In this document: one piece after another, positions 3,770 to 57,594 of the stretch
Layout: every line of letters starts with the position of its first letter
How positions within the stretch are numbered: the stretch's first letter is position 1
Position numbers and translations under genes: made by a program
Assembly: GCF_043753625.1 (NCBI RefSeq)
Contig: NZ_JAYUWI010000118.1
Span: 4,141 to 68,140, forward strand
Reading direction: 5' to 3'
Source: Nitrosomonas sp.
Lineage (GTDB): Bacteria; Pseudomonadota; Gammaproteobacteria; Burkholderiales; Nitrosomonadaceae
Length of the DNA stretch: 64,000 bases
The notes under the pieces: generated by a model
The model's input: only the letters and a program-made list of their open reading frames with translations
Told to the model about the DNA's origin: nothing
Databases searched by the model: none

Positions 3770-4315
3770 TCATTTTGTAGCCACGCTTCCACTACCGGGT
3801 AATTCAAAGAAAGTATATGAAATAGTCACCGTGTTTATCTCTGGTGGCAATCCAGGTTCAATTACGAATTGCACTGGCATTTGTCTAGTCTCATATGGCT
3901 TAAGCACTTGCTTCGTAAAACAAAAACATTCAAATTTTTTCAAATGTTTATCCAGAAAACGTGGGCTGTAACTGGGTATTGCCTGCCCATTTATTTCACG
4001 GTCTGAATTATTAGTAATTTCGTACATCACACTGATTGCCTCACCTGGATGAATACGAGCGCTGGATTGCAGTGGTCTAAATTGCCAAGGCAATCCTCGT
4101 GTGTTGGCATCAAATTCAACTGTAATCCAACGCGCTTCATCCACCCAGTTTTCTTTAATCAGAACATCCGGTTTTAGCAGATTATTAATTCCAGTTACTT
4201 CGCAAAATTTCTCATAAAATGGCACAAGCGCATAACCAAAAGCAAACATAATTAATGTGAAAACCAATAACTTTTTCAACATTGCTACATTGGCTTTTAG
4301 TAGGCTAGTTACCAT
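3770..4315 (-). CDS. ctaG: Cytochrome c oxidase assembly protein CtaG/Cox11
   Basis: YEKFCEVTGIN and copper-binding KFECFCF motifs. Confidence 0.94.
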   Translation of the reverse strand: MVTSLLKANVAMLKKLLVFTLIMFAFGYALVPFYEKFCEVTGINNLLKPDVLIKENWVDEARWITVEFDANTRGLPWQFRPLQSSARIHPGEAISVMYEITNNSDREINGQAIPSYSPRFLDKHLKKFECFCFTKQVLKPYETRQMPVQFVIEPGLPPEINTVTISYTFFELPGSGSVATK

Positions 4316-4416
4316 TGTTTGAAAATAACCGTTAAATAAATTGCTACCACCATAATCAACAGAAAAATGGCTGTTATTTTAGCCTTCTTGTGCTTAATTT
4401 CCGTTTCTTGTGACAT
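4309..4416 (-). CDS. 35-aa single-TM protein between coxA and ctaG (not in the ORF track)
   Basis: MSQETEIKHKKAKITAIFLLIMVVAIYLTVIFKQW*; fills the coxA-ctaG gap and its stop overlaps the ctaG ATG (CAATGGTAA). Confidence 0.7.
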   Translation of the reverse strand: MSQETEIKHKKAKITAIFLLIMVVAIYLTVIFKQW

Positions 4417-4433
4417 ACATTTCTCGCCTGCCT

Positions 4434-6020
4434 TTATTTAATAACTGGTGGTGTTTCAAAGGTATGGTATGGCGCTGGTGATGGTAAATGCGTCCATTCC
4501 AATGTTGTTGCACCATCCCATGGCATCTGCGAGGCTTTTTCACCCTTACGTATACAATCAATCACGAGGTAAAGGAAAAGAAGCTGCGTTAGTCCAAATC
4601 CAAAGGCACCGAGACTAGAAATCATATTAAAATCTGCGAATTGTAGATTGTAATCCGGGACTCTACGCGGCATACCAGCCAATCCTAAGAAATGCTGAAC
4701 AAAGAATGTCATGTTAAAGAAAAACATCGATAGCCAGAAATGCCATTTGCCGAGCGTTTCACTGTACATATGGCCGGTCCATTTTGGAATCCAATAATAT
4801 ACCCCAGCAAATAAGGCAAATAAGGCACCTGACACGAGAACATAGTGGAAATGGGCAATTACATAGTATGTATCCTGTACTTGAATATCAATAGGAACAA
4901 TTGCGCAAATCACACCACTAAAACCACCGATTACAAACAAGAAAATAAACCCGATTGAAAATAACATCGGTGTTTCAAATGTCATTGAACCGCGCCACAT
5001 CGTGGCTGTCCAGTTAAACACTTTAACCGCTGTTGGCACAGCAATCAACATTGTCGCGTACATAAAGAATAGCTGACCAACTGCTGGCATCCCTGCTGTA
5101 AACATATGATGCGCCCATACAACACAAGATAAAATCGCGATTGATGCCGTAGCATAAACCATTGATGAATAACCAAATAATGGCTTTCTTGAAAAAGTTG
5201 GAATTATTTCAGAAACAATACCAAAAGCTGGCAAAATCATGATATAAACTTCTGGGTGCCCAAAAAACCAGAAAATATGCTGAAACAGTACTGGGTCACC
5301 CCCGCCAGCTGCATTGAAGAAGCTTGTACCAAAATGACGATCTGTCAACAACATAGTTACGACACCAGCCAAAACCGGCATCACCAAAACCAGCAAATAG
5401 GCAGTGATCAACCATGTCCATACAAACATTGGCATCTTCATCAATGTCATCCCTGGTGCACGCATATTTAAAATGGTCGTAATGATATTAATTGAGCCCA
5501 TAATTGAGGAAGCACCCAATACATGAACTGAAAAAATCATTAGATCCACACCCAGACCACCTTGGGTTGAAAGTGGTGGATAAAATGTCCAACCACCTGC
5601 TGCTGCACCACCCGGTACAAAAAATGAACCAATCAACATAGTAGCCGCCACTGGCAGCAACCAGAAACTCCAGTTATTCATCCGAGCAAAAGCCATATCC
5701 GGCGCACCAATCATCATCGGCACTTGCCAGTTAGCAAAACCCACGAAAGCCGGCATAATGGCACCAAACACCATTATCAACCCATGCAATGTCGTAAATT
5801 GATTGAATAACTCAGGCTCTAAAATTTGTATGCCGGGCTGATATAGCTCCGCGCGAATCCCCATGGCCAAAAAGCCACCCACCATAAACATAGTAAAACT
5901 AAACCAAAGATACATCGTACCAATGTCTTTATGATTAGTCGTTTTAACCCAACGCATAATACCGCTGGGATGATGATCATCATGTTCGTGACCATGCTCG
6001 TCACCGTGTACTGCTGCCAT
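4434..6020 (-). CDS. coxA: Cytochrome c oxidase subunit I (A-family heme-copper oxidase)
   Basis: TTNHKDIG, WFFGHPEVYI, WAHHM and AHFHY ligand motifs. Confidence 0.97.
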   Translation of the reverse strand: MAAVHGDEHGHEHDDHHPSGIMRWVKTTNHKDIGTMYLWFSFTMFMVGGFLAMGIRAELYQPGIQILEPELFNQFTTLHGLIMVFGAIMPAFVGFANWQVPMMIGAPDMAFARMNNWSFWLLPVAATMLIGSFFVPGGAAAGGWTFYPPLSTQGGLGVDLMIFSVHVLGASSIMGSINIITTILNMRAPGMTLMKMPMFVWTWLITAYLLVLVMPVLAGVVTMLLTDRHFGTSFFNAAGGGDPVLFQHIFWFFGHPEVYIMILPAFGIVSEIIPTFSRKPLFGYSSMVYATASIAILSCVVWAHHMFTAGMPAVGQLFFMYATMLIAVPTAVKVFNWTATMWRGSMTFETPMLFSIGFIFLFVIGGFSGVICAIVPIDIQVQDTYYVIAHFHYVLVSGALFALFAGVYYWIPKWTGHMYSETLGKWHFWLSMFFFNMTFFVQHFLGLAGMPRRVPDYNLQFADFNMISSLGAFGFGLTQLLFLYLVIDCIRKGEKASQMPWDGATTLEWTHLPSPAPYHTFETPPVIK

Positions 6021-49036: not shown

Positions 49037-50518
49037 TTAATCTGACAGCGCCGCTGCAATTTCTCTGAAACTGTTCAGCCCGGCTTCCAAGTTCTCGATA
49101 ATTTCACCCGCCAGCACATCCGGCTCGGGCAGATTGTCTAAATCGGCCAAACTCTTATCCTTTAGCCAAAAAATATCCAGACTGGTTTTGTCGCGCGCAA
49201 CAATTTGATCAAAGCTGAATTTGCGCCAACGGCCTTCCGGGTTGCCTTGCTCGCTCCATGTTTCCTTGCGCTCGTGGCGGTTGAGCGGGTTATAGCAAGT
49301 AATGAATTCCTGCAAATCCTCAAAACGCAGTGGTTTCTTTTTTAACGTGTGATGAATATTGGTGCGGCAATCGTAATACCAGACTTCTTTCGTCCACGGT
49401 TCTTTGCTGGCTTCTCGGTTATCGAAGAACAACACATTTGCTTTCACGCCATTAGCGTAGAAAATACCGGTAGGCAATCGCAAGATCGTGTGCAATTCTG
49501 TGGTTTCCAGCAGTTTCTTGCGTACTGTTTCCCCCGCCCCGCCTTCAAACAGCACATTATCCGGCACCACCACTGCCGCCCGCCCGGTGGTTTTCAACAT
49601 GGTGCGGATATGTTGCACGAAGTTGAGTTGTTTGTTGGAAGTTGTTGCCCAGAAATCCTGCCGGTTATAGGTCAGATCGTCTTTTTCCTGTTCTCCTTCA
49701 TCATTGGTGAAACTCATCGCGCTCTTCTTGCCGAACGGCGGATTCGCCAGCACGTAATCGAAGCGGCGGCCGGAATCCGCGACCAGCGCATCATTCGGGG
49801 AAATCATGCTGTCACCGTCGATCTCGCCAATGTTATGCAAAAACATGTTCATCAAAGCGAGGCGCCTCGTGCTCGCGACAATTTCATTGCCAAAAAACGT
49901 TTCGTGTTTGAGAAATGCTTTTTGTGTTTTATCCATCGCATGCTCGGCGACCAGAAAATCATACGCCGCCAGAAAGAATCCGCTCGTGCCGCACGCCGGA
50001 TCGGCAATGGTCTTGCCGGGTTCCGGGCGCACGCATTGCACCATTGCCCGGATCAATGCGCGCGGCGTGAAGTATTGCCCTGCACCGGACTTGGTATCTT
50101 CCGCGTTGCGTTCCAACAGTCCCTCGTAGATGTCGCCCTTCACATCAGCGCCCATCGTCACCCACTGGGTTTCGTTCACCATATCGATCAGGCGGTACAG
50201 TTTGGCCGGGTCCTGGATTTTGTTTTGCGCCTTGGTAAAAATCGTCCCCAGCATTCCCGGCTTTTTGCCCAGCTCCATCAGCAGCGTCACATAATGCACC
50301 TCCAGTTCCGCGCCACGCTTGAGCTTAAGGCTTTGCCAGTTGTACTCGGCAGGAATATCCACGGTGCGGTTATACGGCGGCTGGCTGTATTCATCCGCCA
50401 TCTTCAGGAAAATCAAATACGTGAGTTGCTCCAGATAATCGCCATAACCCACCCCGTCATCGCGCAACGTGGTGCAGAAACTCCAGACTTTGGAAACGAT
50501 GGATGCAGTTGCGTTCAT
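49037..50518 (-). CDS. hsdM: Type I R-M methyltransferase subunit
   Basis: YLEQLTYLIFLKM, GQYFTPR, DPACGT and the N6-adenine motif NPPF. Confidence 0.95.
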   Translation of the reverse strand: MNATASIVSKVWSFCTTLRDDGVGYGDYLEQLTYLIFLKMADEYSQPPYNRTVDIPAEYNWQSLKLKRGAELEVHYVTLLMELGKKPGMLGTIFTKAQNKIQDPAKLYRLIDMVNETQWVTMGADVKGDIYEGLLERNAEDTKSGAGQYFTPRALIRAMVQCVRPEPGKTIADPACGTSGFFLAAYDFLVAEHAMDKTQKAFLKHETFFGNEIVASTRRLALMNMFLHNIGEIDGDSMISPNDALVADSGRRFDYVLANPPFGKKSAMSFTNDEGEQEKDDLTYNRQDFWATTSNKQLNFVQHIRTMLKTTGRAAVVVPDNVLFEGGAGETVRKKLLETTELHTILRLPTGIFYANGVKANVLFFDNREASKEPWTKEVWYYDCRTNIHHTLKKKPLRFEDLQEFITCYNPLNRHERKETWSEQGNPEGRWRKFSFDQIVARDKTSLDIFWLKDKSLADLDNLPEPDVLAGEIIENLEAGLNSFREIAAALSD

Positions 50519-50537: not shown

Positions 50538-50849
50538 CGTCATTCCCGCGTAGGCGGGAATCCAGCCTTACACCAAGTCCGACCATAAATCTTTCCATGT
50601 CGGATTCATCTTTTCGATCAAATTTATTTTCCATTGTCTATTCCACTTTTTAAGTTGCTCCTCGCGTTGAATCGCTGCCAGACTCGTTGAATCAGATTAC
50701 TGGTTACACCGATATACAAAGTGCCGTTATATTGGCTCGCCAGAATATAAACCGCAGCTTGTTTTCCCATTACGCAACCGTCCTCGTTTTTTTCACAGGC
50801 AAGGAATCAGCCCTTAATCACATGGATTCCCGCCTGCGCGGGAATGACG
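50538..50849. mobile_element. 312-bp cassette bounded by 27-bp inverted dRS3/REP-like palindromes and carrying a GIY-YIG relic
   Basis: CGTCATTCCCGCGTAGGCGGGAATCCA (50538-50564) and TGGATTCCCGCCTGCGCGGGAATGACG (50823-50849) are reverse complements with 1 mismatch. Confidence 0.7.
50568..50770 (-). pseudogene. GIY-YIG (UPF0213/YhbQ-like) nuclease, internally deleted and frameshifted
   Basis: ATG 50770 gives MGKQAAVYILASQYNGTLYIGVTSNLIQRVWQ. A different frame then gives IQREEQLKKWNRQWKINLIEKMNPTWKDLWSDLV*; the middle segment is missing at about 50674. Confidence 0.85.
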
Positions 50850-50912: not shown

Positions 50913-51959
50913 TTACCCTTTCTTTTTCCATCGAGCCGCTGGACCTCTGCCCTGGCATTCGACTGCGTTTGCATTTTTCTGCTCTCGCAAAACACGACGC
51001 ACCATGTCTTTGCTCACACCGGGACAAGACTGCTCCACCTGAGCCACAGTAAATTCGCCCACAAAGCGATCGATAGCTACCAACACCAGATTGGTCTTCG
51101 AGCCGCGTGGCGCTTTCACTTCACCCACACGCTCGGCAAATTCGCGGCAAGCCATCTTGAGAATGGACAACACGTAGTTGATGTAAGGCCACGGGTCATG
51201 CTTGCCATCATGCCAACCCTGCGAGCTTTGCTCCAGCGTCTCGTAATAGCGATCCTTGTTTTCTTCGATCAAACGCTCAAGGCTGATATAGCGCCCCACC
51301 TCATAGCCCGATTGATAACACTGAAGCAAAAGCGCCAACCGCGACACGCGCCCGTTGCCGTCGCGGAAAGGATGGATGCACAGAAAATCCAGATTGAATG
51401 CCGCCATCGCAATCAGTGGATGCGCCCAACGATCATCCAGGCAATACTGCCAATCAGTAACCAGCTCCATCATTGCGGCAGGGGTGCCCGCCGCAGACAC
51501 CGGGCGGAAACGAACCCGTTCACGACCATTCGCATAACGCTCGATGATGTCGCCGTCTTTTTCCTTGTATTGGCCCGCATCCCAGATTTGCCCGCGCGCC
51601 AGCCGGTGCAGCTCGCATATCGCCGTCTCGCTCACCGGCATGCGCGCAGCCCCTTCATGAATGAGCTTCAACGCATCGCGATAGCCGCGCACCTCTTCCT
51701 CGTCGCGATCCCGGAACAAAGGCCTAGCCGCAACCAGCAACTCGCGCACCCGCGACGGATCAACCGACACGCCTTCGATACGATTGGAAGAAACCGCGCT
51801 CTCGATCAGCGCATGCTCGCGCAAGGTCTTCAGCCGCTGCGGCGACTGCTGCGTATAAAGCGTCTGCTTGCCGCGGAATTCGCCGAGATCGGCGAGATAC
51901 CAGGACGTGCTGGCGGGAATGGAAAAATCTTTTAAAGCAAAAAGGCGCAGCGTGTTCAT
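50913..51959 (-). CDS. Fic-domain protein with N-terminal inhibitory helix and C-terminal HTH-like tail
   Basis: HPFRDGNGRVSR catalytic motif and SSNRIEG inhibitory motif. Confidence 0.92.
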   Translation of the reverse strand: MNTLRLFALKDFSIPASTSWYLADLGEFRGKQTLYTQQSPQRLKTLREHALIESAVSSNRIEGVSVDPSRVRELLVAARPLFRDRDEEEVRGYRDALKLIHEGAARMPVSETAICELHRLARGQIWDAGQYKEKDGDIIERYANGRERVRFRPVSAAGTPAAMMELVTDWQYCLDDRWAHPLIAMAAFNLDFLCIHPFRDGNGRVSRLALLLQCYQSGYEVGRYISLERLIEENKDRYYETLEQSSQGWHDGKHDPWPYINYVLSILKMACREFAERVGEVKAPRGSKTNLVLVAIDRFVGEFTVAQVEQSCPGVSKDMVRRVLREQKNANAVECQGRGPAARWKKKG

Positions 51960-52963
51960 GTCGTTTTCCTTTTTGTCTTGAGCGCAGTATCAGCCCGCTC
52001 CGCCTTGATGCGCGTCAGGAGCACCGAAGCGGGTTCGTCGTTTGGATCTTGCGGCACCAGTTGGCCGGAGAAGGCTTTTTTCAGGATGGATTGGCGCAGG
52101 GCTTCGGCTTGCTGTAAGGCGGTGGTGATGGTTTGGTCGAGTTGGTCGGCTTCGGAAAGGCGTGATGCCAAAGCTTCATTGACTGCTTCAGCTTCTATTT
52201 CAGAACAAATAGGCACAACGATTGACCGGATTCTGTCCTGTCCAATATTGCGCATGGATTCTTGATTACCAGTCGATAGCCGCATGATTTGGTTGCGCCC
52301 AATTCGGCTGCCTAGATACTGAAGAAAGTATTCCTGAGAAAACCCATCGAATCTAATGCGAAGCGTTTTATCACTCAGCATAATTTTCTTGGTTACCTTC
52401 CTTGCAATGACGCAGGCACCTACGAGATCAATAGTATTAGCTCTGCTTAAAATGAAATCGCCGCTCCGAATTAAATAGGCTTCATTTTCTTTCGAGGTGT
52501 CAGTGCAGGTCTTGCTTTCCGATTCATCATATTCACCCCACGTCACTGCACTTACTTTTGCCACACCTATTTCATTAGCACGCGGCTCACGTTCGTCACA
52601 CTTAAAACTTTTTCCTGCATCAATCGAATCAATGAAGTCGCCCAATTTGCACCACCTCCACCCCGCCGGCAGTTCGGGCAATTCGGCCAGTTCTTCGACG
52701 GTGAGTGGCGGCAGGAATTTCGGGGGCTTGGGTTTTGAAATCCCTCCTCGCTCCCCTTTTTCTAAGGGGGGGATGGGCGCGGTGCTGGCTGGCTTCCCTC
52801 TTTGTAAAAGGGGGATAGAGGGGGATTTTTCCCAGTCGGCGAGTTGTTGCTGGTAGCGTTGTGCGCGCTCTTGCTGGATGCGTTTCAGCAAAGTGTCGGC
52901 GGTTTCGAGGGGTTTGTCATTCCCTGTCACCCTCGCGAAGGCGGGGGGCAGGCGGGAATCCAT
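51956..52963 (-). CDS. hsdS: HsdS C-terminal half (linker, TRD2 and conserved helix); part of frameshift-split hsdS
   Basis: LPELPAGWRW, TRD and QALRQSILKKAFSGQLVPQDPNDEPAS; a possible ATG at 52963 lies inside the repeat. Confidence 0.8.
   Translation of the reverse strand: MDSRLPPAFARVTGNDKPLETADTLLKRIQQERAQRYQQQLADWEKSPSIPLLQRGKPASTAPIPPLEKGERGGISKPKPPKFLPPLTVEELAELPELPAGWRWCKLGDFIDSIDAGKSFKCDEREPRANEIGVAKVSAVTWGEYDESESKTCTDTSKENEAYLIRSGDFILSRANTIDLVGACVIARKVTKKIMLSDKTLRIRFDGFSQEYFLQYLGSRIGRNQIMRLSTGNQESMRNIGQDRIRSIVVPICSEIEAEAVNEALASRLSEADQLDQTITTALQQAEALRQSILKKAFSGQLVPQDPNDEPASVLLTRIKAERADTALKTKRKTT
52738..52828. repeat. In-frame palindromic insertion in hsdS (PPLEKGG-type family)
   Basis: AAATCCCTCCTCGCTCCCCTTTT ... 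AAAAGGGGGATAGAGGGGGATTT inverted arms, each with an internal CCCTTT/AAGGG hairpin; encodes KSPSIPLLQRGKPASTAPIPPLEKGERGGI. Confidence 0.75.
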
Positions 52964-53005
52964 GTCGTTCAAAGGCTGGCCCCCCCCCCCTTCGCGGGGG
53001 TGACG
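52916..53005. repeat. Composite dRS3/REP-like palindromes inside hsdS with a C11/G11 homopolymer at 52980-52990
   Basis: GTCATTCCC-TGTCACCCTCGCGAAGGCGGGGGG-CAGGCGGGAATCCAT ... GG-C11-TTCGCGGGGGTGACG. Confidence 0.85.
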
Positions 53006-53661
53006 TTCCGCTCCGCGCGCCACTGCGCGGTGAGTTTGCCCTCGAACGCATGTTTCAGCAGCGCTTGGCGATACACCTTGAGCTGTAATTGGGCGGTTTT
53101 CAGGTTTTCGATGCCCTTATCCAGCTCGGAAAACAGTTCTTCAATTTTGGCGACGATGCGGTGTTGTTCGTTTGTGGGTGGTAGCGGAACATCACAGGCA
53201 CTCAGGTAAGGAGTTGTCACGCGCCGCTGACCAACCGCACCAGACATATTGTGTTCTGCCTGGCGACGAAAGGCTTGAGATGATACGAAGTAGTAAATGT
53301 ACTTTGCGTTCACTCCAGATAGTGCACGAAGAACATGAAATTCGGTTGAACCAAAGCCAATACCATTTATGATTTCTGGCACTACAGCCATTTTCCCATT
53401 TTCCATACAGGGAGTTATCTTGGCAAATAGAACATCCCCTTCACAAAAAGGCGTGTAACCTTTTTTTACTTCCGAAAATTTGCGCTTACCGCCAACATCA
53501 ATTATTCCGCTTTCAGCTTGCACGGCTGGCATCGGTACAAATGAAACCTCTAAATCATCAGGAATACCAGCTTTATCAAGTGTCGGGTTTACAGAGACTA
53601 CTTCAGAAATCTTAGCATCACACCAAGCATGGGGTCGCCCGTTAACATTTACTTTCATCAC
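52969..53661 (-). CDS. hsdS: HsdS N-terminal half (TRD1 and conserved helix), ending just after the G11 tract
   Basis: LFAKITPCMENGK, PLPPTNEQHRIVAKIEELFSELD and YRQALLKHAFEGKL; start overlaps the hsdR stop. Confidence 0.88.
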   Translation of the reverse strand: MMKVNVNGRPHAWCDAKISEVVSVNPTLDKAGIPDDLEVSFVPMPAVQAESGIIDVGGKRKFSEVKKGYTPFCEGDVLFAKITPCMENGKMAVVPEIINGIGFGSTEFHVLRALSGVNAKYIYYFVSSQAFRRQAEHNMSGAVGQRRVTTPYLSACDVPLPPTNEQHRIVAKIEELFSELDKGIENLKTAQLQLKVYRQALLKHAFEGKLTAQWRAERNVTPAKGGGASL

Positions 53662-56471
53662 CCCACCAACACTTCATTCAACTCATCCAGCAACGGTTCC
53701 ATCCTTGCCCCAAACAACTGATGCATCCTGCCCAATCCGCCTTGTGCGTCGAACGGCGACATTTCCAGATCGTCGCGTTCGATGTGGAAGGAGTTAGCAA
53801 CGTGGTCGCGGATCATGTGCAGCCAGTTCATTTGCTCTTCGTTGAACTTCTCACCGCTGCCGGCGTGGCGTTGCATAATCCAGCTTTGGAAGTTGCGGCG
53901 TACGGTGTCGTCGAAGGGGGTTAGGGTTTTGTCCCAACCGCATACACGACGAATCAGTGCGACCAGTGTCGTGAGCTCATTGACTGGATTTCCGCCTGCC
54001 CCCCGCCTTCGCGAGGGTGACAGGGAATGGCGGGATTCCAGTTGTTGATACGCTTGCCACACGCTCAGTGGCGCGAGTTTGGGTTTGTCGGTTTTGAGTT
54101 TATCCAGCACTTGGCGGATCAGGGCGTAGCTGAGTTCACGCCTGCGATACGGCTGGCTGAAAAAGATGGTCAGTGCGGCAATGCTGTCTTGATTCGCCTT
54201 CAGGTAACCGGCAAATTCATCGGTTAAAGCTTGCGCATTGTTGGCGGCATCTTTGTCCCATTCGGCGCGCAACATTGTGTCGATGTTGTCGTGGTCGATG
54301 GTTTGTTCCTTGTCGCGGCGGATGGATTCGATGAGTTCGACCAGTTCGCCGTTCAATACTTTCGCGGCTTCAGTTACTAATTGCTGTTGCGCTTGCTGGC
54401 GTTTGTCGTCGCCGGGGTCTGAGCCGATGGGGAGCTTTGCCAGTTCCAGCGCACGCGCTTCGATGTTGTCGGCGTCGATTGCGCTGAATAATTTGCCGAC
54501 AAATTGGGTGAGTTCCATACCGCCAGCGAGTTCGCGGATGCGGCGCTGGTCATCGGTATCAAGTTGTTTGTTGAGCCGCGCCAGGCGACCGGCAAGCGAG
54601 CTGACAGTGTCTTCATCGGTTACGCCCATCATCACGCTCATCGCCAAATCCTTGAGTGGCACGCTGGGTTTAGTGATCAGCGGCTGGCTGGCGGTCTTAA
54701 GCGATTGGGTGACGCCGATGGCATCGACAATCACATAGTGGGTCTTGGCGCTGACGGCGGAGGGCGTGACTTTTTTCAGGTCGTCCATGTCCAGCGTGCG
54801 CGTGCCACGGCCTTTCATTTGCTCGAAATAGTTGCGGCTTTTCACGTCACGCATGAACACCAAACATTCCAGCGGCTTGACGTCGGTGCCGGTGGCGATC
54901 ATATCCACTGTGACGGCGATGCGCGGGTAATATTCATTGCGGAATTGCTGCAACACGGACTTGGGGTCTTCCTCGGTTTTGTAAGTGAGCTTTTTGCAAA
55001 AGGCGTTGCCCTCGTCAAATTCCTCGCGCACGGTCTGGATAATGTCGTCAGCGTGACTGTCTGTTTTGGCGAAGATCAGGGTCTTTGGCACTTCGCGGCG
55101 GCCGGGAAAAATCTCCGGCAGCTTGTCGCGGAAAGTACGAATGACGGTGCGGATTTGATCCGGGTTGACGATGTTGCGATCCAATTGCGTGTTGGAATAG
55201 GCTTCGTCTTCGTCCTGCATTTCCCAGCGCTTCTTGCGCGTGAGTTTTTCGCGTTTTTCCACTTGTTGCTTGGCGGTGATCTGCGCGCCTTGCTGGGTGA
55301 TCTGCGTTTCGATCACGTAGACTTCATTGCCAACGTTCACGCCATCCGCCACGGCCTTTTCGTGACTGTAATCGCTGACTACGTTTTTCTTGAAGAAACC
55401 GTAAGTGCGATTGTCCGGCGTGGCGGTTAAGCCGATCAGGCTGGCATCGAAATAGTCGATAACCTGTTGCCACAGGTTGTAGATGGAGCGGTGGCATTCG
55501 TCGATAAAGATGAAATCGAAGAATTCCGGCGGGACTTTTTCGTTATACACCACCGGCATCGGCGTTTTGGGTAGCGCCAATTCTGCAGGGTTAATTTCTT
55601 CGGCAGCATCATCGAGCGGCGTGTCTTTCAGGATGGAATACAAACGCTGGATGGTGCTGATGCACACCTGGCTATCCTTGGCGACAAAAGAAGATTTGAG
55701 GCGTTGCACGTTGTACAGCTCGGTAAACTTACGGTTATCGTCGAGCGGCACGTAGGACATCATTTCCTGCTCAGCCTGCTCGCCAAGATTTTTGGTATCG
55801 ACCAGAAACAGAATACGCTTGGCATTCGCATATTTGAGCAGGCGGTAAATTGAGGTGATGGCGGTGTAAGTTTTACCCGCGCCGGTTGCCATTTGAATCA
55901 GGGCGCGCGGACGACCCGCCTTAAACGAGGCTTCCAGATTGATGATGGCGGTTTCCTGGCAATCACGCAGGTGCAATTCCCTGGCGGGCAAGTGATTGGG
56001 ATTGAGCAGCGGAATATGGTGCAAACGTTCGCGCAGGCTGGCATCTTGCGCCAGCCTTTCTTTGAGCGTCTCGGGGCGGTGAAAATTGAATACTTCACGC
56101 GAGCGGGGTTTGGGATCACGGCCGTCGGTGAAACGGGTGATGATGCCGGTACTTTGGTAGAGGAAAGGCAAGGGTTCTTTGTTATTGACCCACTTGAGCG
56201 GAGCCGCCGCGTAGTCTTCAGTTTGAGTTTCATGCGCAGTGAGCCGCTGACCTTCTTCTTCACGCTTGGCTTCGATTACGCCGATTGCTTTTTTATCCAC
56301 GAACAGCACGTAATCCGCCGGACCGGCATCGGTCTGGTATTCACGCACCGCTTGGCCTAATCCAACATTCAGATCAATCTTTTTGGCTGATTGAACAACC
56401 CAGTTCGCTTGCCTAAGCAATGCATCAATGTTGTCACGGGCTTTTTGTTCTGGATTCTGGTTTTCGGTCAT
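53658..56471 (-). CDS. hsdR: Type I R-M restriction subunit (start reassigned to ATG 56471)
   Basis: ADY...IEAK nuclease motif, MATGAGKT, IDECHRS, TATP, QMKGRGTR and EcoEI-R-like C-terminus. Confidence 0.95.
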   Translation of the reverse strand: MTENQNPEQKARDNIDALLRQANWVVQSAKKIDLNVGLGQAVREYQTDAGPADYVLFVDKKAIGVIEAKREEEGQRLTAHETQTEDYAAAPLKWVNNKEPLPFLYQSTGIITRFTDGRDPKPRSREVFNFHRPETLKERLAQDASLRERLHHIPLLNPNHLPARELHLRDCQETAIINLEASFKAGRPRALIQMATGAGKTYTAITSIYRLLKYANAKRILFLVDTKNLGEQAEQEMMSYVPLDDNRKFTELYNVQRLKSSFVAKDSQVCISTIQRLYSILKDTPLDDAAEEINPAELALPKTPMPVVYNEKVPPEFFDFIFIDECHRSIYNLWQQVIDYFDASLIGLTATPDNRTYGFFKKNVVSDYSHEKAVADGVNVGNEVYVIETQITQQGAQITAKQQVEKREKLTRKKRWEMQDEDEAYSNTQLDRNIVNPDQIRTVIRTFRDKLPEIFPGRREVPKTLIFAKTDSHADDIIQTVREEFDEGNAFCKKLTYKTEEDPKSVLQQFRNEYYPRIAVTVDMIATGTDVKPLECLVFMRDVKSRNYFEQMKGRGTRTLDMDDLKKVTPSAVSAKTHYVIVDAIGVTQSLKTASQPLITKPSVPLKDLAMSVMMGVTDEDTVSSLAGRLARLNKQLDTDDQRRIRELAGGMELTQFVGKLFSAIDADNIEARALELAKLPIGSDPGDDKRQQAQQQLVTEAAKVLNGELVELIESIRRDKEQTIDHDNIDTMLRAEWDKDAANNAQALTDEFAGYLKANQDSIAALTIFFSQPYRRRELSYALIRQVLDKLKTDKPKLAPLSVWQAYQQLESRHSLSPSRRRGAGGNPVNELTTLVALIRRVCGWDKTLTPFDDTVRRNFQSWIMQRHAGSGEKFNEEQMNWLHMIRDHVANSFHIERDDLEMSPFDAQGGLGRMHQLFGARMEPLLDELNEVLVG
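53984..54041. repeat. Composite palindrome inserted in frame in hsdR
   Basis: CTGGATTTCCGCCTGCCCCCCGCCTTCGCGAGGGTGACAGGGAATGGCGGGATTCCAG; same core as the hsdS copy in the opposite orientation; read as SRHSLSPSRRRGAGGNP. Confidence 0.8.
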
Positions 56472-56811
56472 ATTTAAAACACACAAGAATCATATCTCTT
56501 GATCTGCTTCCCTATCTTTATTCAACACATGATAGCGTACAGTGCTTAAAAAGCCACGAAGTACCTTGCTACAAATGGTTTGCTTAAATCTTGTACTGTG
56601 AAAACCTTAAATTCATTAATACGGAATTTCTCTTTAGCAGCCCGCTGAATTTAAAGCTGAAGCTCTGTCACTGAGAGCGGAGATCAATCAGTATTGATGC
56701 ATTTTCCTAAAGGAGATATTTCAGGCATATTTAAGGATTTATTGTGCAAATTAGAAGTACTCCTTCTCCATGAGTAAATCTGATAGTATTTTTATTTCAG
56801 GATGAGAACCC

Positions 56812-57594
56812 ATGATTATTGTTATTTCGCCAGCAAAAACACTGAATTTTGAAACGCCAGCCATCACGCAGGAGCATACGCAGCCTGGTTTTCTCGATGA
56901 TTCAGCCGAACTGATCGACCAACTCAGAAAACTGGAGCCGGATCAAGTCGGCAAGTTGATGTCTATCAGCTCTAATCTCGCTGTTCTAAATTCAAACCGC
57001 TATTTCGCCTGGAATCGCCCATTTGACATGAAAAATGCCAAACAGGCAGTACTCGCTTTCAAAGGAGATGTTTACACAGGTTTGGATGCAGATACACTGA
57101 CCGTTGCAGATTTGGCTTTTGCGCAGGATCATTTACGCATTCTGTCCGGATTGTATGGCGTGTTGCGTCCGCTGGATCTGATGCAGGCTTACCGGCTGGA
57201 AATGGGCACCCAGTTCAAGAATTCGCGCGGCAATAATCTGTACGAATTCTGGGACGATAAAATCACCCAAGCGCTCAATCAGGATTTGAAAAAACAAAAA
57301 ACAGATATTCTGATCAATCTGGCTTCCATTGAATATTTTCAGTCCGTGCAGAAGAACAAATTAAACGCACGCATCATCACTCCGGTTTTCAAAGATGAAA
57401 AAAACGGTGTTTACAAAATAATCAGTTTTTTCGCCAAGAAAGCGCGTGGCTTGATGAGCCGCTATATCATCCAGAACAAGCTGACAAACCCTGAAGATAT
57501 CAAACACTTCACTAGTTCAGGTTATCAGTTTAGTGAAGATGCCAGCAACCGTGATGAATGGATTTTCACTCGCGCGGAATCAAGATCAATTTGA
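56812..57594 (+). CDS. yaaA: Peroxide stress protein YaaA
   Basis: ISPAKTL, LSGLYGVLRPLDLMQAYRLEMG and AKKARG. Confidence 0.95.
   Translation: MIIVISPAKTLNFETPAITQEHTQPGFLDDSAELIDQLRKLEPDQVGKLMSISSNLAVLNSNRYFAWNRPFDMKNAKQAVLAFKGDVYTGLDADTLTVADLAFAQDHLRILSGLYGVLRPLDLMQAYRLEMGTQFKNSRGNNLYEFWDDKITQALNQDLKKQKTDILINLASIEYFQSVQKNKLNARIITPVFKDEKNGVYKIISFFAKKARGLMSRYIIQNKLTNPEDIKHFTSSGYQFSEDASNRDEWIFTRAESRSI

What the first reader, a model, noticed from the sequence alone, without database searches (positions are those of the whole stretch)
52916..54041. The same nested composite palindrome lies within both hsdS and hsdR coding sequence, in opposite orientations
Seen: the core CGCCTGCCCCCCGCCTTCGCGAGGGTGACAGGGAATG occurs at 53993-54029 (+) and as the reverse complement at 52918-52954. 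It resembles one palindrome (CCCCGCCTTCGCGAGGGTGACA) inserted into the GGATTCCCGCCTGCGCGGGAATGAC unit that flanks the GIY-YIG relic. It is translated as MDSRLPPAFARVTGND in HsdS and SRHSLSPSRRRGAGGNP in HsdR, and hsdR stays open. Established: Rickettsia palindromic elements insert in frame into genes. Inference: recent, frame-preserving colonisation of R-M genes. The two inverted copies about 1 kb apart could also support inversion of the segment that holds TRD1.
Basis: partly seen in the sequence, partly recalled or inferred. Interest (0 to 1): 0.7.

Follow-up and report, generated by a model that had tools for sequence, protein, structure and literature searches.

The report
Ssn-type hairpin repeats inside restriction genes
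Two inverted copies of a 48-base hairpin repeat, an extended form of the NTS/SRM repeats cut by small GIY-YIG Ssn nucleases, sit in frame in the hsdR and hsdS genes of a Nitrosomonas genome as tolerated passengers, not as an inversion switch.

Summary
An exact 37-mer, 45 nt at 98%, lies at 52918-52962 and inverted at 53985-54029, with none expected by chance.

It is one dispersed repeat family, not a local oddity. The unit cGTCATTCCC-TGTCACCCTCGCGAAGGCGGGGGG-CAGGCGGGAATCCAG was found 62 times in about 26 flank contexts in Nitrosomonas, Gallionella and Thiohalomonas. Several copies flank intact GIY-YIG ssnA genes.

The simple form beside the window's ssnA pseudogene matches the published NTS/SRM target of Ssn single-strand nucleases, a CGTC-tagged REP like Neisseria dRS3 and Rickettsia RPE-4/6.

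Homologues keep all stages at the hsdR and hsdS sites: empty, simple, extended. A third site, beside the ssnA relic, shows simple versus extended. So the nesting is real.

The two copies are not recent. Nitrosomonas sp. Is79A3 and several MAGs share both. The hsdR copy drifts about neutrally, while the hsdS copy is unusually conserved.

No assembly shows the inverted arrangement. There is no second hsdS and no recombinase. Inversion would destroy both genes.

Separately, an 11-G run in a neighbouring hairpin splits hsdS in this window.

Verdict: a new variant of a known kind, of moderate interest.

The parts
52915..52963 (+). Extended (two-tier) SRM/NTS-type hairpin repeat. Its forward orientation is on the + strand, so it is antisense to hsdS. 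It is translated in hsdS as (M)DSRLPPAFARVTGND and contributes an in-frame ATG at 52961-52963 (minus strand).
   Evidence: It is identical to the family consensus. Segregating sites: 1/48 against 15/84 in the adjacent coding flank, in four loci fetched through HsdR.
53984..54032 (-). Second copy of the extended repeat, forward on the minus (coding) strand of hsdR. It is translated as SRHSLSPSRRRGAGGNP. The tag is mutated (CGCCA instead of CGTCA) and the outer stem carries a C.A mismatch (GGCGGAAAT).
   Evidence: Orthologous copies are 90.7% identical, against 90.3% at third codon positions of the flanks.
52976..53005 (-). Stand-alone inner-type hairpin (B': CGTCACCCCCGCGAAGG...CCAG), in frame in hsdS (NVTPAKGGG) and tail-to-tail with the extended unit 15 nt away. 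Its 3' arm has become a run of 11 G on the coding strand (C run 52980-52990).
   Evidence: Homologues read GGTGGGGGG or GGCGGGGG(T/C) and stay in frame.
50538..50565 (+). Simple NTS/SRM unit CGTCATTCCCGCGTAGGCGGGAATCCAG, downstream of the ssnA relic.
   Evidence: It matches the published SRM search string.
50822..50849 (-). Simple NTS/SRM unit CGTCATTCCCGCGCAGGCGGGAATCCAT, upstream of the ssnA relic. It shares the atypical CCATGT tail with the hsdS copy. The orthologous site in L031 carries the extended form.
   Evidence: (I5).
50566..50821 (-). ssnA (small GIY-YIG ssDNA nuclease) pseudogene. The N-terminal 32 and C-terminal about 34 residues remain. An 88-nt internal deletion shifts the frame.
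   Evidence: Pfam GIY-YIG PF01541, E 1e-5. It is 59% identical over its full length to the intact 96-aa gene of L016, with a 28-aa gap.
53658..56486 (-). hsdR, a Type I restriction subunit with an EcoEI_R_C C-terminal domain. It is open. Homologues start at MTENQ (56471).
52969..53661 (-). hsdS 5' ORF: TRD1 plus the first conserved helix. It ends at TGA 52969-52971 because of the +2 frameshift in the G run.
51956..53023 (-). hsdS 3' ORF: linker, TRD2 and C-terminal conserved region. The first ATG in frame is the one inside the extended repeat (52963), 5 nt after the stop of the 5' ORF.
52752..52826 (.). Two hairpins of a second small-repeat family in the HsdS linker (CCCCTTTTTCTAAGGGGGGG and CCCTCTTTGTAAAAGGGGG), translated as PPLEKGERGG and PLLQRGK. 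Some alleles lack them.
   Evidence: Metagenome depth is raised at 52771-52884.

Best explanation
The two inverted copies belong to a dispersed family of small, directional DNA hairpin repeats. These are the CGTC-tagged REPs, known as dRS3/NTS in Neisseria and generalised as Ssn-related motifs (SRM). As single-stranded hairpins they are the binding and cleavage targets of about 95-residue GIY-YIG Ssn nucleases.

The copies here are an extended, two-tier form. It keeps the usual tag (C/TGTCA), outer stem (ATTCCC/GGGAAT) and tail (CCAG/CCAT). The short GCG(C/T)AG centre is replaced by a second hairpin that has its own TGTCA tag (CCCTCGC-GAAG-GCGGGGG).

Shown:
- The extended form recurs with sharp ends at many unrelated loci and next to intact ssnA genes.
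- It sits in frame in permissive linkers of HsdR (C-terminal domain) and HsdS (central linker).
- Homologues show the series empty, simple, extended at the hsdR and hsdS sites, and simple versus extended at a third site beside the ssnA relic.
- Both copies predate the split from Nitrosomonas sp. Is79A3.

Inferred:
- The repeats entered the R-M island from an NTS-ssnA-NTS cassette, now a pseudogene 2 kb away that shares the unusual CCATGT tail with the hsdS copy.
- The two-tier form arose once, by insertion of one tagged hairpin into another.
- Simple copies are later overwritten by the extended form, most likely by short-patch templated repair or gene conversion between family members that share both ends.
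- In the proteins the inserts are neutral filler. Only stop-free frames of the unit are seen in genes.
- The inverted pair has no role as an inversion switch.
For: Identity:
- The simple units at 50538-65 and 50822-49 fit the NTS consensus CGTCATTCCCGCGMAVGCGGGAATCYRG, with one mismatch each, and fit the SRM search string of Chenal et al. 2025 (PMC11893778).
- They bracket a GIY-YIG relic, the published NTS-ssnA-NTS layout.
- The CGTC tag, AT-first stem and CCA tail fit the CGTC-REP definition of Di Nocera 2013 (PMC3733652).

Dispersed family:
- 15 genome loci and 31 metagenome loci, giving 62 copies in 27 flank clusters with constant ends.
- Intact ssnA genes are flanked by extended units in L016, L038/L049 and L051.
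- Two-tier hairpin: 95% of cells are paired against 38-60% for slid controls, and 3 pairs show double changes.

State series:
- hsdR.
- hsdS.
- ssnA flank: window against L031, an exact 21-nt indel plus one substitution in near-identical flanks.

DNA rather than peptide is the conserved unit. The same unit is read as RHSLSPSRRRGAGGNP, VIPCHPREGGGQAGI or DSRLPPAFARVTGND in different genes.

Age:
- Both copies are present in Is79A3, L022, L023, L031, L041, L042 and L044.
- The ubiH-mltA flank is 90.7% identical to Is79A3.
- hsdR copies are 90.7% identical, against 90.3% at flank third positions.

Local origin:
- 25 units in 73 kb of R-M islands against 4 in 142 kb of flanks.
- None elsewhere in the 64-kb window.
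- Shared CCATGT tail (I5).

No inversion: all hsdR-type 5' flanks pair with hsdR-type 3' flanks, and likewise for hsdS.
Against: - The extended unit does not match the published SRM search string, which allows at most 35 nt.
- No Ssn protein has been shown to bind it, and the only ssnA in the window is a pseudogene.
- How these repeats move is unknown even for the simple form (PMC3733652, PMC11893778).
- The conversion model rests on three polymorphic sites, and on finding no free 21-nt inner unit in about 500 kb of loci that were selected for carrying the extended form.
- The hsdS copy is far more conserved than its coding flank (1/48 against 15/84 segregating sites, p = 0.01). A pure 'neutral filler' view does not predict this.
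- Loop location in HsdR could not be confirmed. The AlphaFold model was unusable (mean pLDDT 36.6) and there is no solved homologue.
- Reads were available only as contigs, so rare rearrangements are untested.
Confidence: 0.75

Rival explanations
1. Invertible switch. The 45-nt inverted repeats mediate inversion of the 1-kb segment that holds the hsdR 3' end and hsdS TRD1, giving phase-variable loss or change of R-M activity.
For: The inverted repeat is real and 98% identical. It brackets TRD1 (53173-53655). Type I systems with invertible hsdS segments are known (own knowledge: SpnIII, Mycoplasma pulmonis hsd).
Against: - The partner repeat lies in hsdR, not in a second hsdS. Inversion would truncate HsdR at about residue 818 and remove the hsdS start.
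- There is no recombinase gene in the island.
- All loci that carry both copies are collinear, and no recombinant flank pair was seen among the 8 hsdR-type and 10 hsdS-type copies.
- TRD1 exchange boundaries (53173, 53655) do not coincide with the repeats.
- The same unit occurs singly in many unrelated places.
Confidence: 0.04
2. Repeated site-specific nested insertion. A mobile 21-nt inner hairpin inserts again and again at the same position (ATTCCC^GCG) of simple NTS units, independently creating the extended form at hsdR, hsdS and the ssnA flank. Simple copies are not overwritten by gene conversion.
For: - The junctions are identical at three orthologous sites.
- A different 24-nt hairpin sits at another position of the same hsdS unit in L002 and L019, so nesting happened at least twice.
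- The inner part carries its own TGTCA tag.
Against: - No free copy of the 21-nt unit was found outside an outer ATTCCC/GGGAAT frame in about 500 kb of loci. The stand-alone B' unit has its own full tag and tail and a different stem.
- The extended form also needs a C-to-G change next to the insert at every site. Copying a whole template explains this more simply.
Confidence: 0.2
3. The hsdS copy is functional at the DNA or RNA level. It might act as an Ssn-guarded barrier that limits exchange of the specificity gene by incoming single-stranded DNA. It might instead act as a structured element, with an internal ATG, that allows expression of the downstream half of a split HsdS.
For: - The hsdS copy has 1/48 segregating sites against 15/84 in the adjacent coding flank (p = 0.01). 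The hsdR copy drifts at the synonymous rate.
- The hsdS copy keeps an intact tag and perfect stems.
- NTS-gene-NTS arrangements reduce transformation in N. meningitidis (PMC11893778).
- The ATG at 52963 lies 5 nt after the stop of the upstream hsdS ORF.
Against: - The sample is small and partly ascertained through the search pattern.
- Homogenisation by conversion explains the conservation equally well.
- hsdS alleles without any insert exist and look intact (L003, L020).
- ssnA in the island is a pseudogene.
- Competence of Nitrosomonas is not established here.
Confidence: 0.2
4. The shared sequence is a chance palindrome or an assembly duplication.
For: None beyond the general risk of repeat-induced misassembly. 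Logan unitigs break inside both copies.
Against: None expected in 100 shuffles. The same two copies are present in a finished genome and in many independent assemblies.
Confidence: 0.01

Closest known systems
NTS / Ssn-related motifs (SRM) and the SsnA GIY-YIG single-strand nuclease (Chenal et al. 2025, Nat Commun, PMC11893778)
   Same: - The simple units in the window fit the NTS consensus (one mismatch each) and fit the SRM search string.
- Directional CGTCA head and C-rich tail.
- NTS-ssnA-NTS layout, here with a decayed ssnA.
- Extended units flank intact ssnA genes in related loci.
   Different: - The units in hsdR and hsdS are 48 nt, with a second tagged hairpin in place of the loop, and are missed by the published search string.
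- They lie inside genes, in frame. The paper reports only 2% of NTS inside genes in N. meningitidis.
- Hosts are Nitrosomonadales and Thiohalomonas, not named in that paper.
- Binding or cleavage by an Ssn protein is untested.
CGTC-tagged REPs, including Neisseria dRS3 and Rickettsia RPE-4/RPE-6 (Di Nocera, De Gregorio, Rocco 2013, BMC Genomics, PMC3733652)
   Same: - CGTC/TGTC tag, stem starting with AT, CCA-type tail.
- Single units and dimers.
- No linked transposase.
- In-frame intragenic copies, often in DNA-metabolism genes, sometimes two per gene.
   Different: - The four described families have one 8-9 bp stem and a 4-5 nt loop. The two-tier form is not among them, as far as the text I read shows.
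- R-M genes are not among the hosts listed in the passages I read.
Rickettsia palindromic elements (RPE) inserted in frame in genes (cited in PMC3733652 as refs 13, 14; otherwise own knowledge)
   Same: Small palindromic repeats that add a peptide segment to otherwise conserved proteins, while homologues lack the insert.
   Different: RPE-1 is 100-150 bp and confined to Rickettsia. I did not compare sequences, so the relationship rests on Di Nocera's classification of RPE-4/6.
REP/REPIN elements with RAYT transposases
   Same: Short tagged hairpins, inverted doublets (extended units 38 nt apart in L038, L049, L050), and a small linked nuclease gene flanked by the repeats.
   Different: The tag is CGTC, not GTAG. 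The linked gene is GIY-YIG, not an IS200/IS605-type tyrosine transposase.
Phase-variable Type I R-M systems (invertible hsdS shufflons; homopolymer-tract hsdS such as NgoAV; own knowledge)
   Same: Inverted repeats near a TRD. A long G run inside hsdS yields a TRD1-only ORF.
   Different: There is no second hsdS and no recombinase. No inverted form and no tract-length heterogeneity was seen. The repeats are generic genome repeats, not hsdS-specific sequences.

Membership tests
NTS/SRM repeats of Ssn nucleases (Chenal 2025) | Sequence fits the NTS consensus or the SRM search string HGTCWYN(0-2)YYVSBRHN(0-5)WNVSBRGN(0-2)RNCYNB | tested here: not met
   The two simple units (50538-65, 50822-49) match. 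The two extended units of the finding, and the G-run-mutated B' unit, do not. The string allows at most 35 nt and the extended unit is 48 nt.
NTS/SRM repeats of Ssn nucleases (Chenal 2025) | Directional, non-palindromic head (CGTCA) and tail (C after the palindrome, CCAG) around a hairpin | tested here: met
   Head is c/tGTCA and tail is CCAG or CCAT in nearly all of the 62 copies. The window's hsdR copy has CGCCA.
NTS/SRM repeats of Ssn nucleases (Chenal 2025) | Physical association with a small single-domain GIY-YIG (ssnA) gene, typically flanked on both sides | tested here: met
   The window has an ssnA relic between two simple units. Extended units adjoin intact ssnA in L016, L038/L049 and L051, and adjoin the relic in L031.
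NTS/SRM repeats of Ssn nucleases (Chenal 2025) | Many dispersed copies per genome | tested here: inconclusive
   There are 62 copies in 27 flank clusters across genomes and metagenomes, five of them in one Thiohalomonas MAG. In this window all units lie within the R-M island. No whole-genome count was possible.
NTS/SRM repeats of Ssn nucleases (Chenal 2025) | Bound as ssDNA and cut just upstream by the cognate Ssn protein, on one strand only | not testable with these tools
   Needs a biochemical assay.
CGTC-tagged REPs (Di Nocera 2013) | CGTC (or TGTC/CCTC) tag, 8-9 bp stem beginning with AT, 4-5 nt loop, CCA tail | tested here: inconclusive
   The simple units meet all four features. The extended unit keeps the tag, the AT-first outer stem and the tail, but has a second hairpin in place of the loop.
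CGTC-tagged REPs (Di Nocera 2013) | Some copies lie in frame inside genes whose homologues lack them | tested here: met
   hsdR, hsdS, an epimerase in L011 and a methylase-like R-M ORF in L012/L029 (both named from the peptide sequence, no family search run).
Rickettsia palindromic elements | Sequence membership in RPE-1 to RPE-8 | not tested
   No RPE sequences were compared. The link rests on PMC3733652 equating RPE-6/RPE-4 with CGTC-1/CGTC-4.
Invertible Type I hsdS systems | Two or more hsdS genes or fragments in opposite orientation that share the inverted repeats | tested here: not met
   There is one hsdS, and the partner repeat is in hsdR.
Invertible Type I hsdS systems | Adjacent site-specific recombinase | tested here: not met
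   Island ORFs are hsdR, hsdS, Fic, the ssnA relic and hsdM.
Invertible Type I hsdS systems | Both orientations present among molecules or strains | tested here: not met
   No recombinant flank pair was seen among the 8 hsdR-type and 10 hsdS-type copies. Individual reads were not available.
Homopolymer-tract phase-variable hsdS (NgoAV type) | Long homopolymer inside hsdS whose length sets the frame | tested here: met
   G11 on the coding strand (C run 52980-52990). The equivalent stretch is 9 nt and in frame in Is79A3.
Homopolymer-tract phase-variable hsdS (NgoAV type) | Tract length varies within a population | tested here: inconclusive
   A single unitig with G11 was found in two runs at 12-14x, with no alternative lengths. 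Contigs drop rare variants.
REP/RAYT (REPIN) | GTAG tag and a linked IS200/IS605-type tyrosine transposase | tested here: not met
   The tag is CGTCA/TGTCA and the linked gene is GIY-YIG. A RAYT gene elsewhere in the genome was not searched for.

The most novel reading that the evidence does not exclude
Ssn-type hairpin repeats may be maintained by a precise, homing-like copying process. A unit nicked as a single-stranded hairpin would be repaired from another family member, so that simple units are overwritten in place by the extended two-tier form. That switch is seen at three orthologous sites here, one of them between near-identical sequences. The intact copy inside hsdS would then be kept, or keep being refreshed, because it acts at the DNA level on the specificity gene. 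It could limit replacement by incoming single strands, or supply the restart codon for a split HsdS whose frame is set by a G run that arose in the neighbouring hairpin.
Probability: 0.2. Interest if true: 0.65.

Novelty: new variant of a known kind. Interest (0 to 1): 0.4.

Why it matters
The spread of CGTC-tagged REPs (dRS3, NTS, RPE-4/6) has been an open question since they were described. No transposase is linked to them, and the Ssn nuclease was tied to them only in 2025.

This locus offers natural before-and-after pairs at two sites (empty, simple, extended) and at a third (simple, extended). It also shows an extended two-tier form that the published search string misses yet that flanks intact ssnA genes. 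This gives concrete substrates for testing Ssn specificity and a test case for whether these repeats are copied into one another.

For annotation, it explains the odd peptides (SRHS...GGNP, MDSR...GND, VIPAKAG, PLLQRGK) and the length variation in HsdR and HsdS of Nitrosomonadales. It also warns against reading the inverted pair as a phase-variation switch.

Tried and rejected
- **Inversion test on reads.** Only Logan contigs were served for the runs that hold the window, and no Nanopore run was listed. Unitigs break inside both repeats, so orientation cannot be read from them.
- **Poly-G heterogeneity.** One unitig with G11 appears in both runs, which is not informative about rare variants.
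- **AlphaFold2 of HsdR** with a 23-sequence alignment gave mean pLDDT 36.6. I did not use it. The coil it drew at the insert is not evidence.
- **PDB sequence search** with the HsdR C-terminal 230 residues found nothing.
- **Rfam.** The only hit was a chance mir-1226 match at E = 0.15.
- **Whole-protein NJ tree of HsdR** to order the states. Carriers of the extended form are not monophyletic, because hsdR is mosaic. I used the linked local patch instead.
- **Deriving the simple unit from the extended one by a single deletion** does not work at the sequence level. Going from extended to simple needs a 21-nt deletion plus a G-to-C change.
- **Repeats as TRD1 recombination breakpoints.** The variable block is 53173-53655, well inside the repeats.
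- **Peptide-level selection.** Rejected because the same DNA is read in three different frames and orientations in different genes.
- **Conservation statistics on all recovered loci** are biased by the search pattern. I therefore also give the four loci fetched through HsdR.

Full report
**1. Observation**

No match appeared in 100 shuffles. The repeat finder extends the pair to 45 nt at 98% (52918-52962 / 53985-54029).

All genes here are on the minus strand:

| Gene | Coordinates | Note |
|---|---|---|
| hsdR | 53658-56486 | ResIII and EcoEI_R_C domains |
| hsdS | 52969-53661 and 51956-53023 | two ORFs |
| Fic gene | 50913-51959 | |
| GIY-YIG relic | 50624-50770 | bracketed by two 28-nt hairpins |
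| hsdM | 49037-50518 | |

The quoted peptides are correct.

**2. What the simple unit is**

The hairpins beside the relic read CGTCATTCCCGCGTAGGCGGGAATCCAG and CGTCATTCCCGCGCAGGCGGGAATCCAT.

- This fits the NTS consensus of Chenal et al. 2025 (CGTCATTCCCGCGMAVGCGGGAATCYRG; PMC11893778), with one mismatch in each unit.
- Both units match that paper's degenerate SRM search string when I run it on the window. They are the only two matches, against 0.34 expected.
- In that work NTS/SRM are directional hairpins. The roughly 94-residue GIY-YIG nuclease SsnA binds them as single-stranded DNA and cuts just upstream. ssnA genes are typically flanked by them.
- The relic between the two units is such a gene. 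Pfam GIY-YIG scores E = 1e-5. It is 59% identical to an intact 96-residue homologue from a Gallionella MAG, apart from a 28-residue internal gap. That gap comes from an 88-nt, frame-shifting deletion.
- Di Nocera et al. 2013 (PMC3733652) had earlier classed these repeats as CGTC-tagged REPs. They equate CGTC-1 with Neisseria dRS3, and CGTC-1/-4 with Rickettsia RPE-6/-4. They report in-frame intragenic copies, often in DNA-metabolism genes, and find no linked transposase.

**3. What the 'composite' is**

Oriented like the NTS, both copies read c/tG(T)CATTCCC-TGTCACCCTCGCGAAGGCGGGGGG-CAGGCGG(G/A)AATCCA(G/T). This is the simple unit with its GCG centre replaced by a second hairpin that carries its own TGTCA head.

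A scan of one genome per species found this junction-specific pattern in 15 loci: Nitrosomonas, other Nitrosomonadales, Gallionella/Gallionellaceae, and five places in one Thiohalomonas denitrificans MAG. A looser pattern found 31 metagenome loci. Together with the R-M loci this gives:

- 62 copies in 27 flank clusters, with constant ends and unrelated flanks.
- Some copies form inverted doublets 38 nt apart (L038, L049, L050).
- Extended units directly adjoin intact ssnA genes in L016, L038/L049 and L051.
- The two-tier fold is supported. 95% of cells are paired against 38-60% for slid controls. Double changes occur in the inner stem (C-G to T-A) and the outer stem (AT/TA to GC/CG).

The extended unit does not match the published SRM string, which allows at most 35 nt. 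I therefore treat it as an extended variant of the SRM family. It is not a one-off nesting at this locus.

**4. The state series**

*hsdR.* Among the best 120 HsdR homologues, three forms occur at the same position:

| Form | Count | Sequence at the site | Length |
|---|---|---|---|
| Empty | 101 | ...QLDDYKGAQPVNELT... | mostly 927 aa |
| Simple | 4 | ...QLESRHSRAGGNPVNELT... | 929-936 aa |
| Extended | 15 | ...QLESRHSLSPSRRRGAGGNPVNELT... | 937 aa, includes Nitrosomonas sp. Is79A3 |

At the DNA level the simple unit replaces 18 nt with 27. The extended form adds 21 nt more. Carriers share a short linked patch (QQLE...CGWDKTLTP). They sit on mosaic hsdR backgrounds, so the patch has moved by recombination.

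*hsdS.* The same series exists at one site of the central linker:

- Empty: L003, L020.
- Simple: L025.
- Simple plus a different 24-nt hairpin at another position: L002, L019.
- Extended: window, L001, L022, L023 and several metagenome contigs.

The hsdS insert is really a cluster. A stand-alone inner-type unit (B') lies tail-to-tail with the simple or extended unit, and in some alleles a 21-nt half unit is added.

*ssnA flank.* The unit upstream of the ssnA relic is simple in the window (50822-49) and extended in L031. The difference is an exact 21-nt indel plus one substitution in nearly identical flanks.

So nesting is real, and the switch between simple and extended forms recurs. Whether it happens by templated overwriting or by repeated site-specific insertion is not settled. 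I favour overwriting for three reasons:

- No free 21-nt unit was seen in about 500 kb of loci.
- The extra base change accompanies the insert at each site.
- Donors lie within a few kb.

**5. Age and constraint**

The window's ubiH-mltA flank is 90.7% identical to Is79A3 and lies next to hsdM in both. The island is therefore inherited. Both extended copies predate that split, so they are not recent.

- Orthologous hsdR copies are 90.7% identical, the same as third codon positions of their flanks (90.3%). Many have lost the CGTC head or carry a stem mismatch. This copy looks like a decaying passenger.
- The hsdS copy is different. In four loci fetched through HsdR it has 1 of 48 sites segregating, against 15 of 84 in the adjacent coding flank (p = 0.01). 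In the larger but pattern-biased set the figures are 1-2/48 against 22-23/84.
- Either the hsdS copy is constrained at the DNA level or it keeps being refreshed from other copies. I cannot tell which.

**6. Origin within the island**

- SRM-type units are concentrated in the R-M islands: 25 in 73 kb, against 4 in 142 kb of flanking chromosome.
- There are none elsewhere in the window.
- The hsdS copy shares the atypical tail CCATGT with the ssnA-proximal unit (I5).

I infer that the ssnA cassette seeded the island locally.

**7. Inversion**

- TRD1 is the variable block 53173-53655 and TRD2 is 52160-52648. The repeats lie in conserved DNA outside these boundaries.
- Every locus with both copies is collinear. 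No copy combines an hsdR-type outer flank with an hsdS-type inner flank.
- There is one hsdS and no recombinase.
- Inversion would cut HsdR at about residue 818 and detach the hsdS start.
- Rare events remain untested, because only contigs were available.

**8. Protein consequences**

- Four of the six frames of the unit are stop-free. The in-gene copies use three of them: hsdR, hsdS, an epimerase in L011, and a methylase-like R-M gene in L012/L029. The last two gene names are my reading of the peptide sequences; no family search was run on them.
- Because the same DNA gives three unrelated peptides, the DNA is the unit of descent and the peptide is not.
- The Pfam alignment of EcoEI_R_C spans 188 residues against a 161-position profile match, which is consistent with an insertion.
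- A structural check failed.

**9. The split hsdS**

- In the window the 3' arm of B' is a run of 11 G. Is79A3 has GGTGGGGGG there. The +2 shift ends the first ORF at TGA 52969-52971.
- The ATG inside the extended unit (52963) follows 5 nt later, in the frame of the rest of hsdS.
- Logan unitigs from two runs reproduce G11, with no other lengths.
- Whether this is a dead gene, a two-piece HsdS or a phase-variable tract is open.

**10. Verdict**

It is nested, frame-preserving and related to RPEs. It is not recent, not local to this locus, and not an inversion device.
- Known: in-frame CGTC REPs, and the NTS/SRM-Ssn pairing.
- New here: the extended two-tier subfamily linked to ssnA, its stepwise appearance at orthologous sites inside Type I R-M genes, and the contrast between a drifting and a conserved copy.
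- Interest is moderate.

Noticed in passing
window 52969-53023 (C run 52980-52990; stop 52969-52971; ATG 52961-52963, minus strand): hsdS is split by a +2 frameshift in an 11-G run that arose in the arm of a hairpin repeat. The next in-frame ATG lies inside the extended repeat, 5 nt after the stop, so a two-piece or phase-variable HsdS is conceivable.
   Followed up: partly
window 52752-52826: A second family of small hairpins (CCCCTTTTTCTAAGGGGGGG, CCCTCTTTGTAAAAGGGGG) is translated in the HsdS linker as PPLEKGERGG and PLLQRGK. Alleles L002, L019, L022 and L025 lack this block (they read ASGKQGS instead). Metagenome depth is raised there, so it is also a dispersed repeat.
   Followed up: partly
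window 50566-50821; L023 11600-11990: The ssnA gene in the island is a pseudogene, with an 88-nt deletion between TGGCAGC direct repeats. The L023 copy keeps the middle part but has an in-frame TAG.
   Followed up: yes
window 50913-51959; L001 14575-16290; L019 10430-11449; L024 11130-12776; L003 12856-13463 and 15150-15994: The slot between hsdS and hsdM holds different cargo in each relative. It is Fic here, DarT plus Macro in Is79A3 and L025, DUF1016/YhcG in L019 and L022, and an AlbA_2/ATPase gene in L024. L003 has Bro-N there and, between hsdR and hsdS, an insert that includes a PIN-domain gene. It looks like a defence-gene hotspot inside a Type I operon.
   Followed up: no
L001 13496-13516 and the same site in L031, L042, L055; absent at window 52915: A 21-nt half unit (GTCATTCCCGCCCCCTACTTC, peptide EVGGGND) sits directly before the hsdS repeat in some alleles and is missing in the window, L022, L023 and L044. 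It is bounded by GTCATTCCC direct repeats, as expected for slippage.
   Followed up: partly
window 56487-57594 against L001 1-10000: Synteny with Is79A3 holds on the hsdM side (ubiH, mltA; 90.7% identity). It breaks about 100-150 nt upstream of hsdR, where the window has yaaA and the relatives have the miaB-phoH-ybeY cluster.
   Followed up: partly
HsdR homologues P0001-P0035 (window 53658-54100): hsdR is mosaic. Carriers of the repeat share a roughly 30-residue linked patch (QQLE...CGWDKTLTP) but fall in different parts of a whole-protein tree, so short-patch recombination occurs within hsdR.
   Followed up: partly
L006, L009, L013, L014, L018 (Thiohalomonas denitrificans MAG): In this gammaproteobacterium the extended unit has a perfect inner stem (CCCCCGC/GCGGGGG). 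It is embedded in a longer repeat with conserved flanks on both sides, next to a GTCATCCCCGCG(T/C)AGGCGGGGATCCAT variant.
   Followed up: no
L011 about 4100-5330; L012 / L029: Other in-frame hosts of the extended unit are an NAD-dependent sugar epimerase in a Gallionella MAG and a methylase-like R-M ORF in a Nitrosomonadales MAG (both named from the peptide sequence only). Three of the four clear host genes are R-M genes.
   Followed up: partly
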